From assembly GCF_000026545.1 (NCBI RefSeq), contig NC_011601.1: 64,000 nucleotides of DNA. One strand, written 5' to 3'. The notes under the pieces were generated by a model. It was not told where the DNA came from and did no database searches. It saw only the letters and a list, made by a program, of their open reading frames with translations. A program made the translations under genes and the position numbers. Shown one piece after another: positions 42,453 through 43,462 of the stretch (its first letter is position 1; the number at the start of each line of letters is the position of its first letter). The stretch is from Escherichia coli O127:H6 str. E2348/69. Its GTDB lineage: Bacteria; Pseudomonadota; Gammaproteobacteria; Enterobacterales; Enterobacteriaceae.

Positions 42453-42479
42453 AATGTCATAAATAATGGATTATTGAAC

Positions 42480-42800
42480 ATGATAAAAATTGATGAAATA
42501 GATTTTTTTGCTTTCGAAGGATGTTCAGAGTCCGAAGTTACTGAACTATTAGGAAAAAAACAAACAGGTTATAATGATTGGATAATTAATATAAAAACAG
42601 GTGTGGAGTGGGTATTTTATGATGGTCGTTATTGGTTAGATTTTCGTAAATCCAAAGAGGGTATAAGGTGTATCTCATGCAGTATTCTGTATCACGATAA
42701 AAGTAAAGGGCGTATCGATGTCTTGTTTAGTGAAGGTATAGCTGACAGAGGTTTAAAAAATACGGGTGGAGTGTTAATCCAAAAACGCCCGCAATTATAA
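42480..42800 (+). CDS. hypothetical small protein (AT-rich islet)
   Basis: 106-aa ORF MIKIDEIDFFAFEGCSESEVTELLGKKQTGYNDWIINIKTGVEWVFYDGRYWLDFRKSK...; no TM segments; not recognised; very AT-rich codon usage. Confidence 0.5.
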   Translation: MIKIDEIDFFAFEGCSESEVTELLGKKQTGYNDWIINIKTGVEWVFYDGRYWLDFRKSKEGIRCISCSILYHDKSKGRIDVLFSEGIADRGLKNTGGVLIQKRPQL

Positions 42801-42842
42801 TAATTCCTGGTAATATTTGTTTTCGTAAAAAGGATTTACTTT

Positions 42843-43292
42843 ATGCAACGTCAATATAAAAAATACATTCTTCTTTTTTGGGGGGGCATGGATGTTATCG
42901 CGATAGCCACATATCTGTTCTACTCGCTTGGTAATGATCGTATCCCTTTTTATTCCGATATCGTTCATTCACTTTCTTTACTTAAGGATATCGGTGTTGA
43001 AGGCGGTTTTTACGCTTATGCAGTCGCCACTGTTACGCTACAAATAGTATTATTGCTCTCTTTATTCTTTTCTGCGCAATGTTTTTTAAGACAAAAATTA
43101 TTTAGTTTCTCTTTTTTGGCGATTCAGGAAGTTATGCGTTTTGCTACCGTAAGCTGCTCAATCTCCGTAATACCGTTGTTACTTAATTATTTTCATTCAC
43201 AGAATCTGGTCTTAAATATTTCGTTGTTTATCTTCTCAGAGGTCACAAAAGTGACAACGATTATCTGGTGTAAACGACAGGGGAAAGTGTGA
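42843..43292 (+). CDS. hypothetical membrane protein, about 4 predicted TM helices (AT-rich islet)
   Basis: 149-aa ORF with AAGGA Shine-Dalgarno 8 nt upstream; hydrophobic stretches YILLFWGGMDVIAIATYLFYSL, FYAYAVATVTLQIVLLLSLFF, FSFLAIQEVMRFATVSCSISVIPLLL, LVLNISLFIFSEV; not recognised. Confidence 0.55.
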   Translation: MQRQYKKYILLFWGGMDVIAIATYLFYSLGNDRIPFYSDIVHSLSLLKDIGVEGGFYAYAVATVTLQIVLLLSLFFSAQCFLRQKLFSFSFLAIQEVMRFATVSCSISVIPLLLNYFHSQNLVLNISLFIFSEVTKVTTIIWCKRQGKV

Positions 43293-43462
43293 CAGAAATA
43301 GCAACAGATACAGGTGGATTTTTATATAAATGCCTTTTTAAATGCTTTCTTGTATAAATCTCTTATACTGAAAGTACATACAAGAGAAATGCCTGGATAA
43401 AAACAACGTGATTAGAAAAATCTTAACAGGAAAATGCATAACAAAAAGGAGAACCTGATTCC

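What the first reader, a model, noticed from the sequence alone, without database searches (positions are those of the whole stretch)
42456..43440. AT-rich islet with two uncharacterised small ORFs between metH and yjbB
A roughly 1 kb segment immediately after the metH terminator is far more AT-rich than the flanking housekeeping genes. It carries two co-directional ORFs: a 106-aa soluble protein and, 42 bp later, a 149-aa protein with about four predicted transmembrane helices and a good Shine-Dalgarno (AAGGA). In my recollection of K-12, metH and yjbB are separated only by a short spacer, so this looks like horizontally acquired DNA. A small soluble protein paired with a small polytopic membrane protein is a layout seen in toxin/immunity, bacteriocin-immunity and some phage-defence modules, but I recognise neither protein, so function is open.
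Basis: partly seen in the sequence, partly recalled or inferred. Interest (0 to 1): 0.7.

Follow-up and report, generated by a model that had tools for sequence, protein, structure and literature searches.

The report
Orphan type VI immunity-like gene islet
The AT-rich islet between metH and yjbB is real and is carried by about a fifth of E. coli genomes (apparently phylogroup B2); its membrane-protein gene belongs to a family that elsewhere always sits directly behind an uncharacterised toxin-like domain carried by type VI secretion spikes, so it is most likely a stand-alone "orphan" immunity gene, while the first small ORF is an unrelated and partly decaying passenger.

Summary
The window matches EPEC E2348/69. 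A ~1.02-kb segment at 34-37% GC replaces K-12's 219-bp metH-yjbB spacer and encodes a 106-aa soluble ORF1 and a 149-aa four-TM ORF2. It is in 1132 of 5426 complete E. coli genomes, including CFT073 and Nissle 1917; 4293 others have the K-12 spacer.

The two ORFs are not a cognate pair. ORF2 is under strong purifying selection (dN/dS 0.14). It also occurs without ORF1 at the same site in E. whittamii, Citrobacter amalonaticus and Phytobacter. Its relatives in Pseudomonas, Rahnella, Trabulsiella, Affinibrenneria and 44 of 44 metagenomic loci lie immediately after a conserved ~115-aa C-terminal domain. That domain sits on VgrG spikes, short stand-alone proteins and, per an AFDB hit, an Rhs protein, often inside T6SS clusters. 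Six enterobacterial contigs carry the complete domain + ORF2-like module at this same metH-yjbB site. The domain has no Pfam, PDB or literature match.

Best reading: ORF2 is an orphan immunity gene of an uncharacterised T6SS effector family. ORF1 is an unrelated rare small gene, frameshifted in roughly 40% of carriers. This is a new member of a known kind, of moderate interest and readily testable.

The parts
42421..43437 (+). AT-rich islet that replaces the K-12-type metH-yjbB spacer
   Evidence: GC 0.34-0.37 against 0.53-0.58 in the flanks. Alignment with K-12 breaks at the metH stop and resumes near 43438 (blastn resumes at 43427). Present in 1132 of 5426 genomes. No flanking direct repeats.
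42429..42453 (+). Intrinsic-terminator-like hairpin plus T-run after metH, lying inside the islet DNA
   Evidence: 8-bp stem with 6 GC pairs followed by TTTTT. K-12 has a different sequence at this position.
42480..42800 (+). ORF1, a 106-aa soluble protein of a very rare enterobacterial family; function unknown, unrelated to the toxin-like domain, decaying in part of the population
   Evidence: for the ORF. Only three remote relatives (38-42% identity) among 1.84 billion representative proteins. Invariant W34, W44, D48-G49, D54-F55, R63-C64-I65-x-C67. dN/dS 0.26-0.48, P = 0.01-0.06. Frameshifted by two 1-bp deletions in strain Ecol_AZ161. No Pfam, NCBIfam, PADLOC or PHROG hit. AF2 model pLDDT 59 with no fold match.
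42843..43292 (+). ORF2, a 149-aa four-TM inner-membrane protein; orphan member of the family that partners the T6SS-borne C-terminal toxin-like domain (candidate orphan immunity gene)
   Evidence: Four hydrophobic segments and N-in/C-in charge bias. dN/dS 0.14 at dS 0.58 against E. whittamii, P = 7e-11. Intact in all 6 E. coli copies checked. Profile hits to Citrobacter and Pseudomonas proteins. Retains all residues invariant in 54 of 54 family members: W13, D17, P35, D39, S73, Q95, R99, S106, E133, K136. Relatives directly follow the C-terminal domain in 44 of 44 metagenomic loci.
43293..43462 (+). 170-bp AT-rich spacer between ORF2 and yjbB; its last ~25 bp are shared with K-12 and carry the yjbB ribosome-binding site
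   Evidence: GC 0.31. No terminator-like site found between ORF2 and yjbB. Largely conserved in E. whittamii and E. fergusonii.

Best explanation
ORF2 is an orphan immunity gene. Its family encodes small four-TM inner-membrane proteins whose gene in complete modules starts at or overlaps the stop codon of a gene ending in a conserved ~115-residue domain. That domain behaves like a polymorphic-toxin tip. It is fused to the C-terminus of VgrG spikes (Pseudomonas, Rahnella, and per AFDB Yersinia and Burkholderia). It also sits on ~225-290-aa stand-alone proteins encoded inside enterobacterial T6SS clusters or at the metH-yjbB site, and on an Rhs-core protein. In an attacker the membrane protein would protect against the cell's own or a sibling's delivered toxin. 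In phylogroup-B2 E. coli the toxin gene is absent and only the immunity gene is kept under purifying selection, which would protect against T6SS attack by neighbours deploying this toxin family. ORF1 is a separate cassette of unknown function occupying the place where related bacteria have the toxin gene; it is dispensable. SHOWN: family membership of ORF2, the strict gene linkage, the variety of carriers, T6SS cluster location, the complete module at the same site in relatives, purifying selection, and independence from ORF1. INFERRED: that the domain is toxic, that the membrane protein neutralises it, that it does so at the periplasmic face of or within the inner membrane, and that the E. 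coli orphan cross-protects.
For: (1) The ORF2 profile finds full-length relatives in C. amalonaticus and in Pseudomonas with E-values from 1e-11 to 1e-49. Shared motifs are LFWGxMD and (G)RIPFYSD, plus invariant polar residues. (2) In P. frederiksbergensis, two other Pseudomonas species and Rahnella, the relative directly follows a VgrG carrying the C-terminal domain. (3) In Trabulsiella and Affinibrenneria the same domain sits on non-VgrG proteins of 266-294 aa, again directly followed by the relative. (4) A metagenome scan seeded with the domain alone gave 44 loci. All 44 have an ORF2-like gene immediately downstream, 24 of them with a 4-bp overlap. (5) Contexts of those loci: 20 are VgrG-domain + ORF2-like + lipase (+ lipoprotein + PAAR); 7 are short carrier + ORF2-like in T6SS-cluster context (ClpV-like, kinase-like, carrier, ORF2-like, VgrG where the contig is long enough); 6 are metH, short carrier, ORF2-like, yjbB, in Enterobacteriaceae with MetH and YjbB about 90-93% identical to E. 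coli's. (6) AFDB shows the domain on VgrG of several genera, on an Rhs-core protein, and on 'DUF8093' proteins of Enterobacter, Kosakonia and Salmonella arizonae. (7) Tandem duplicate ORF2-like genes in L059 and L034, and an orphan copy in P. mohnii, are typical of immunity genes. (8) Orphans are maintained: dN/dS 0.14, P = 7e-11; intact in 6 of 6 E. coli; all family invariants kept. A dedicated helper of an absent toxin would be expected to decay. (9) No domain or carrier is detectable in the 64-kb window, in the orphan loci, or at DNA level in 5426 E. coli genomes.
Confidence: 0.7

Rival explanations
1. The ORF2 family is not an immunity factor but an accessory membrane partner of the C-terminal domain, for example needed for its maturation, loading or export, or forming a functional complex with it. 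The E. coli copy would then be a leftover or has been co-opted.
For: Strict 44 of 44 linkage with frequent translational coupling fits any obligate partnership. Invariant charged and polar intramembrane residues (D17, R99, E133, K136) look more like an active or binding site than a typical immunity surface. In 20 loci the pair precedes a lipase effector that has its own lipoprotein immunity candidate, so the VgrG tip plus membrane protein might serve lipase delivery.
Against: Orphan copies without the domain are kept under purifying selection in several genera, which a dedicated helper of an absent partner would not be. The pair also occurs with no lipase and no T6SS genes nearby (L021, L023 and the metH-yjbB loci). 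Tandem duplications of the membrane gene are typical of immunity arrays. No membrane-embedded T6SS adaptor is known to me (own knowledge).
Confidence: 0.15
2. ORF1 and ORF2 form a self-contained two-gene system (toxin-antitoxin, bacteriocin-immunity or phage defence).
For: The genes are co-directional, 42 bp apart, one soluble and one membrane protein, AT-rich and accessory. The same pair order recurs at about 40% identity in one other enterobacterial contig, L014.
Against: ORF2 occurs without ORF1 in E. whittamii, C. amalonaticus, Phytobacter and 44 of 44 module loci. ORF1 relatives occur without ORF2 (L010-L012, Serratia fonticola L013). ORF1 is frameshifted in the 1040-bp variant while ORF2 stays intact, and it is also frameshifted in L014. 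There are no significant PADLOC, Pfam or NCBIfam hits.
Confidence: 0.04
3. At this locus ORF2 has been co-opted for a housekeeping role tied to the downstream phosphate-transport gene yjbB, for example as a small membrane subunit or regulator co-transcribed with it.
For: Across Escherichia, Citrobacter, Phytobacter and unnamed Enterobacteriaceae, the orphan (and the complete module) always lies upstream of and co-oriented with yjbB. No terminator-like site separates ORF2 from yjbB.
Against: 79% of E. coli genomes lack it, with YjbB otherwise nearly identical. The family's other members sit in T6SS loci unrelated to yjbB. The shared site is equally explained by common ancestry or by recombination through conserved flanks.
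Confidence: 0.06
4. The islet is a non-functional relic: H-NS-silenced AT-rich DNA with ORFs preserved only by recent common descent within B2.
For: It is AT-rich. ORF1 is decaying. The promoter-like matches found are no more numerous than in shuffled sequence. Truncated ORF2 variants exist in the protein database.
Against: ORF2 shows dN/dS 0.14 with 39.5 synonymous against 26.5 non-synonymous changes relative to E. whittamii (P = 7e-11). It also keeps all family-invariant residues.
Confidence: 0.05

Closest known systems
Orphan T6SS immunity genes. Examples: the lone Tri1-like immunity genes noted in Enterobacter bugandensis (PMC10763514); and, from my own knowledge, not checked here, the orphan immunity arrays of Vibrio cholerae auxiliary clusters and the acquired interbacterial defence islands of Bacteroidales.
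   Same: An immunity-type gene is kept without its effector and presumably protects against other bacteria's T6SS. Related genomes carry the complete effector + immunity module, here even at the same chromosomal site.
   Different: Here it is a single gene in a housekeeping intergenic region, not an array beside a T6SS cluster or on a mobile island. The effector family is itself uncharacterised. Neutralisation has not been tested.
Evolved VgrG effectors with a downstream immunity gene, e.g. P. aeruginosa VgrG2b metallopeptidase (PMC6899460) and VgrG-NucSe1 of Salmonella arizonae (PMC12992299).
   Same: A C-terminal extension follows the VgrG DUF2345 region and a small gene comes immediately downstream.
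   Different: The extension is a ~115-aa domain with no known fold or catalytic motif. The downstream protein is a four-TM integral membrane protein, not a periplasmic or lipoprotein immunity factor. The same domain also exists on short non-VgrG carriers.
Polymorphic toxin systems (Rhs, CdiA and others) with displaced or orphan toxin-tip + immunity cassettes (Zhang et al. 2012, PMC3482391).
   Same: One C-terminal domain sits on several unrelated N-terminal carriers, always followed by the same small-gene family. Orphan immunity-only copies exist.
   Different: Neither the domain nor the membrane-protein family matched any Pfam-A family, which includes the Ntox/Tox/Imm families. The Rhs association rests on one AFDB hit.
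VgrG C-terminal domains that dock lipase cargo, e.g. the EAEC VgrG1 transthyretin-like domain binding Tle1 (own knowledge, not checked here).
   Same: In 20 loci the order is VgrG tip, small gene, Lipase_3-type effector, lipoprotein, PAAR.
   Different: The domain + ORF2-like pair also occurs with no lipase at all, and the intervening gene encodes a membrane protein rather than a soluble adaptor.

Membership tests
T6SS / polymorphic-toxin effector-immunity module (ORF2 family as the immunity component) | The immunity gene lies immediately downstream of, and is co-oriented with, the gene ending in the toxin domain. | tested here: met
   44 of 44 metagenomic loci, 24 with a 4-bp overlap. Also Pseudomonas, Trabulsiella, Affinibrenneria and Rahnella.
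T6SS / polymorphic-toxin effector-immunity module (ORF2 family as the immunity component) | The same C-terminal domain is found on different N-terminal delivery modules. | tested here: met
   Full-length VgrG (948-1106 aa), three unrelated classes of short N-termini, and an Rhs-core protein in AFDB whose domain position was not verified.
T6SS / polymorphic-toxin effector-immunity module (ORF2 family as the immunity component) | The module is encoded within or next to T6SS structural genes. | tested here: met
   Hcp-TssH-VgrG...PAAR-VasK in Rahnella. ClpV-like, kinase-like, carrier, ORF2-like, VgrG in L059-L064. VipB, VgrG and PAAR in Pseudomonas. Not met for the metH-yjbB, Trabulsiella and Affinibrenneria copies, which are isolated.
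T6SS / polymorphic-toxin effector-immunity module (ORF2 family as the immunity component) | The domain is toxic to bacteria and is secreted by the T6SS. | not testable with these tools
T6SS / polymorphic-toxin effector-immunity module (ORF2 family as the immunity component) | The immunity protein binds or neutralises its cognate toxin specifically. | not testable with these tools
   Supported only indirectly, through linkage, tandem duplicates and retained orphans.
Orphan immunity gene (the E. coli ORF2 specifically) | It is a sequence member of the immunity family with the family's conserved residues intact. | tested here: met
   Profile E-values. All 10 residues invariant in 54 of 54 members are present.
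Orphan immunity gene (the E. coli ORF2 specifically) | The cognate toxin gene is absent from the same genome. | tested here: inconclusive
   No domain or carrier by tblastn in the 64-kb window or the islet. No DNA match to one enterobacterial module in 5426 E. coli genomes. A protein-level search of the whole E2348/69 genome was not possible.
Orphan immunity gene (the E. coli ORF2 specifically) | It is maintained by selection despite lacking the toxin. | tested here: met
   dN/dS 0.13-0.16 against E. whittamii, P = 7e-11; intact in 6 of 6 E. coli plus E. fergusonii.
Two-gene toxin-antitoxin / bacteriocin-immunity / defence pair made of ORF1 + ORF2 | The two genes co-occur and are co-inherited. 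| tested here: not met
   ORF2 without ORF1. ORF1 relatives without ORF2. ORF1 frameshifted while ORF2 is intact.
Known anti-phage defence systems (PADLOC-DB 2.0) | A significant match to a defence-system protein model. | tested here: not met
   ORF1 has no hit; ORF2 has only E = 0.065 to a generic 2TM effector model.
Classical genomic island / mobile element | Integrase or transposase, flanking direct repeats, or a tRNA target. | tested here: not met
   There are only two ORFs, no direct repeats at the borders, and no match on true plasmids or phages.

The most novel reading that the evidence does not exclude
The ~115-residue domain ('DUF8093'-type) is a new-fold T6SS toxin that acts at or in the inner membrane. 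The ORF2 family counters it from within the membrane through its invariant charged residues, possibly enzymatically rather than by simple binding. In that case about a fifth of E. coli genomes, apparently the whole B2 phylogroup including ST131-like strains, CFT073, EPEC E2348/69 and the probiotic Nissle 1917, carry a fixed orphan immunity gene that shapes their competitive success against T6SS-armed Enterobacteriaceae in the gut. More broadly, the metH-yjbB spacer would be a conserved 'immunity cassette' hotspot across enteric genera, with ORF1 as a second orphan immunity gene to an unknown toxin.
Probability: 0.25. Interest if true: 0.7.

Novelty: new member of a known kind. Interest (0 to 1): 0.5.

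Why it matters
Phylogroup B2 includes the main extra-intestinal pathogens, long-term gut residents and the probiotic Nissle 1917. A conserved orphan immunity gene would be a concrete, testable determinant of how they withstand contact-dependent attack by other Enterobacteriaceae. The analysis also defines a previously undescribed T6SS effector-immunity family: a toxin-like tip with no known fold, present on VgrG, short carriers and apparently an Rhs protein, paired with a four-TM partner and found across Pseudomonas, Yersiniaceae and Enterobacteriaceae. All members are currently annotated as hypothetical. Finally, the work turns two anonymous ORFs found in over a thousand complete genomes into a specific hypothesis, and it shows that ORF1 and ORF2 should not be treated as a unit.

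Tried and rejected
- Direct annotation of both proteins against Pfam, NCBIfam, PADLOC and PHROGs gave nothing significant.
- An Rfam scan of the islet gave only a sub-threshold L20_leader match: 19.9 bits against a gathering score of 58.7.
- The promoter scan found no more sites than in shuffled sequence.
- The 'distant' ORF2 hits P0033 and P0034 turned out to be the same locus in error-ridden assemblies.
- The long repeat proteins P0040 and P0041 that hit ORF1 look spurious.
- The G7/T6 run in ORF2 as a phase-variation tract was rejected, because it is private to E2348/69.
- ORF1 as a remnant of the toxin carrier was rejected: hhalign probability 0.4% and no tblastn relic in any orphan locus.
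- The idea that divergence between E2348/69 and K-12 peaks at the islet, implying an ancient balanced haplotype, was rejected. Divergence is a fairly uniform 3-5% over 20 kb.
- ORF1 structure prediction gave pLDDT 59, and its AFDB search returned nothing meaningful.
- The first genome scan with the ORF1 alignment failed for lack of a conserved stretch.
- Literature searches by locus tag, for DUF8093, for evolved VgrG with TM immunity, and for orphan immunity in B2 found no paper on these genes. The Salmonella arizonae and Enterobacter T6SS papers do not cover this domain.
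Full report
OBSERVATION. The window is E. coli EPEC E2348/69: the islet matches it at 100% identity. Between the metH stop (42420) and the yjbB start (43463) lies 1042 bp. About 1017 bp of this (42421-43437) has 34-37% GC, against 53-58% in the flanking genes. It holds a terminator-like hairpin at 42429-42448. It also holds ORF1 (42480-42800, 106 aa), a 42-bp gap, ORF2 (42843-43292, 149 aa, AAGGA 8 nt upstream) and a 170-bp AT-rich spacer. ORF2 has four hydrophobic segments, and positive charges at the N-terminus, loop 2 and C-terminus predict an N-in/C-in topology. 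ORF1 has no hydrophobic segment. K-12 has an unrelated 219-bp spacer. Homology stops at the metH stop codon and resumes about 25 bp before yjbB.

DISTRIBUTION. Among 5426 complete E. coli genomes, 1132 carry the islet, always as one chromosomal copy at this site and annotated as two hypothetical proteins. Another 4293 carry the K-12-type spacer, so the two alleles together account for 5425 of 5426 genomes. Carriers include CFT073 and Nissle 1917. The window lacks arpA between aceK and iclR. From my own knowledge of the Clermont typing scheme, that is a B2/F marker. The arpA-less junction occurs in 1308 genomes, so the islet behaves as a phylogroup-B2 trait. There are no mobility genes and no flanking repeats, and there is no copy on true plasmids or phages. 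Divergence between E2348/69 and K-12 is a uniform 3-5% across 20 kb and does not peak at the islet.

THE TWO ORFS ARE NOT A PAIR. Some E. fergusonii strains have both ORFs intact. E. whittamii has ORF2 at 85% amino-acid identity, but the ORF1 segment is replaced by about 290 bp with no substantial ORF. Citrobacter amalonaticus and Phytobacter massiliensis have an ORF2 relative alone upstream of yjbB. Conversely, ORF1 relatives occur alone between metH and yjbB in contigs L010-L012. One also occurs in Serratia fonticola between a prophage baseplate gene and dapA. ORF2 is under strong purifying selection: dN/dS is 0.13-0.16 at dS about 0.6 against E. whittamii, P = 7e-11. It is intact in all six E. 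coli copies examined. ORF1 shows only marginal constraint (dN/dS 0.26-0.48, P = 0.01-0.06). In the one genome of the 1040-bp variant that I examined, ORF1 is broken by two 1-bp deletions. That variant made up 11 of 25 evenly spaced hits, so roughly 40% of carriers probably share the frameshift; this proportion is an extrapolation. ORF1 is nonetheless a real, very rare family. An exhaustive HMMER search of 1.84 billion representative proteins found just three relatives at 38-42% identity, sharing W, DG, DF and RCISC motifs. Its AF2 model is poor (pLDDT 59) and found no structural neighbour.

WHAT ORF2 BELONGS TO. A profile of ORF2 orthologues hit 140-142-aa proteins of Pseudomonas at about 33% identity over 92% of the length. 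In P. frederiksbergensis the gene follows a vgrG gene directly and precedes a Lipase_3 protein, a 257-aa lipoprotein and a PAAR gene. In P. mohnii it sits in a vgrG island just upstream of the same lipase. A scan of about 100,000 species representatives gave seven loci. In five of them the ORF2-like gene starts at the stop of a gene whose last ~115 residues are conserved (GPGxWVT...NRxTSMGDEGRxFGSEGKD...IRRYGxER...YLEGDDxW...SWxWxP). That gene is a full VgrG in three Pseudomonas species, but a 266-294-aa protein with an unrelated N-terminus in Trabulsiella and Affinibrenneria. Rahnella megaplasmids show the same arrangement inside a core T6SS cluster: Hcp, TssH, VgrG, domain, 142-aa gene, lipase, PAAR, VasK. 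All members are annotated as hypothetical.

THE DECISIVE TEST. I searched metagenomes with the C-terminal domain alone. This gave 44 loci. In all 44 an ORF2-like gene lies immediately downstream, in 24 with a 4-bp overlap, and none has an ORF1-like gene. The contexts are as follows:
- 20 loci have a VgrG-fused domain followed by ORF2-like and a lipase, usually with a lipoprotein and PAAR.
- 7 loci have a short carrier + ORF2-like in a T6SS-cluster context; where the contig is long enough the order is ClpV-like ATPase, Ser/Thr-kinase-like gene, carrier, ORF2-like, vgrG. The ClpV-like and kinase-like labels rest on N-terminal sequence resemblance, not on a domain search. L059 has two tandem ORF2-like copies.
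- 6 loci (L052, L053, L055-L057, L065) read metH, short carrier, ORF2-like, yjbB, in Enterobacteriaceae whose MetH and YjbB are about 90-93% identical to E. coli's.
So the complete module occupies exactly the site where B2 E. coli has ORF1 + ORF2. ORF1 is not a remnant of the carrier (hhalign probability 0.4%), and no carrier relic is detectable in any orphan locus. In a family tree the yjbB-linked orphans nest among partners of the short carriers. They keep all residues that are invariant in 54 of 54 members: W13, D17, P35, D39, S73, Q95, R99, S106, E133, K136.

INTERPRETATION. One C-terminal domain on several delivery scaffolds, encoded in T6SS clusters and always followed by the same small gene, with tandem duplicates and orphan copies, matches the established signature of a polymorphic toxin with its immunity gene (framework: PMC3482391). 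I therefore read ORF2 as an orphan immunity gene of an uncharacterised T6SS effector family (confidence about 0.7). The linkage, carrier diversity, T6SS context, same-site complete modules, selection and independence from ORF1 are shown. Toxicity, neutralisation, the site of action and cross-protection by the E. coli orphan are inferred. My guess for the site of action is the periplasmic face of or within the inner membrane, given a four-TM partner with an invariant periplasmic-loop motif.

The main rival (about 0.15) is that the membrane protein is an accessory partner of the domain rather than an immunity factor. The invariant charged intramembrane residues and the frequent downstream lipase fit that view. 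Retention of orphans under selection and lipase-free modules argue against it. Co-option for a yjbB-linked role, a self-contained ORF1 + ORF2 system, and a dead relic are each unlikely, at 0.06 or less.

ORIGIN. Whether B2 gained the islet or other E. coli lost it is unresolved. The same site carries related cassettes in at least Escherichia, Citrobacter, Phytobacter and unnamed Enterobacteriaceae, which favours an old cassette site. In E. fergusonii the islet is much less diverged from E. coli's (dS 0.10-0.14) than the adjacent metH 3' end (0.32) or yjbB (0.77-0.94). This indicates lateral exchange of the islet between species.

VERDICT. The toxin/immunity intuition is right in kind but wrong in assignment. 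It is a new member of a known kind (an orphan T6SS-type immunity gene), belonging to an effector-immunity family that has not been described. Interest is moderate (0.5): it is not a surprise in principle. It is, however, specific and testable, and it concerns a gene fixed in a medically important fifth of E. coli genomes.

Noticed in passing
window 37686-37706 (aceK-iclR junction): arpA, present in K-12 between aceK and iclR, is absent here. The arpA-less junction is found in 1308 of 5426 E. coli genomes, against 1132 with the islet. This is consistent with a phylogroup-B2 origin of the window, and it means about 176 arpA-negative genomes lack the islet.
   Followed up: partly
window 45126-47934: There is about 2.8 kb of extra DNA between yjbB and pepE relative to K-12. 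An IS3-family element (orfA at 45180-45701, truncated orfB at 45803-46303) is apparently interrupted by an IS110-family transposase gene at 46522-47598. The RefSeq E2348/69 record shows only an intact IS1397 there, so the window differs from that assembly at this point.
   Followed up: partly
window 48769-55086: This block is absent from K-12 between pepE and rluF. In CFT073 and E2348/69 RefSeq records it is annotated as the L-sorbose utilisation/PTS operon, sorE and others.
   Followed up: no
L005 and L006 (E. fergusonii), islet against flanks: The islet is far less diverged from E. coli's (dS 0.10-0.14) than the adjacent metH 3' end (0.32) and yjbB (0.77-0.94). This suggests recent inter-species transfer of just the islet. 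How such tight recombination boundaries arise is unexplained.
   Followed up: partly
metH-yjbB intergenic site across Enterobacteriaceae (window 42421-43462; L010, L014, L015, L019, L020, L053, L065): The site is multi-allelic. It can be empty (K-12 type), or hold ORF1 + ORF2, ORF2 only, ORF1 only, or toxin-like carrier + ORF2-like. It behaves as a cassette hotspot although no recombinase or repeat is visible.
   Followed up: partly
L059 4869-5378 and 5418-5897; L034 1370-1792 and 2260-2517: A second ORF2-like gene or fragment lies downstream of the first after the toxin-like gene: two tandem full-length copies in L059, and an 85-aa ORF2-like ORF some 470 bp further on in L034.
   Followed up: no
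L017 3412-5811 (P. mohnii vgrG island): Between VgrG and the orphan ORF2-like gene lie four other small genes: a 257-aa protein with a C-terminal hydrophobic region, a DUF7079 protein, and two predicted lipoproteins of 170-175 aa. They look like further effector-immunity cassettes.
   Followed up: no
P0054 (P. frederiksbergensis, L018 6001-6423): UniRef labels this 140-aa four-TM protein 'Arginine:ornithine antiporter', which is implausible for its size. It is likely an annotation-transfer error.
   Followed up: no
L074 7163-7447 (Rahnella aquatilis pMEM40-1); L050 5088-5372: The C-terminal domain is annotated or called as a separate 94-aa ORF just after a shortened VgrG gene, instead of being fused to it. 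This may be a frameshift, a sequencing error or a genuine split.
   Followed up: no
window 42873-42887: The T6G7 homopolymer run near the ORF2 start is specific to E2348/69. Other strains read GGGGTGT or GGGGCGT, giving Gly15 instead of Val15.
   Followed up: yes
L014 ~270-290: The ORF1 relative in this contig is split by a frameshift at a G-run, paralleling the ORF1 frameshift in the E. coli 1040-bp variant. It could be a sequencing error in a short-read assembly.
   Followed up: no
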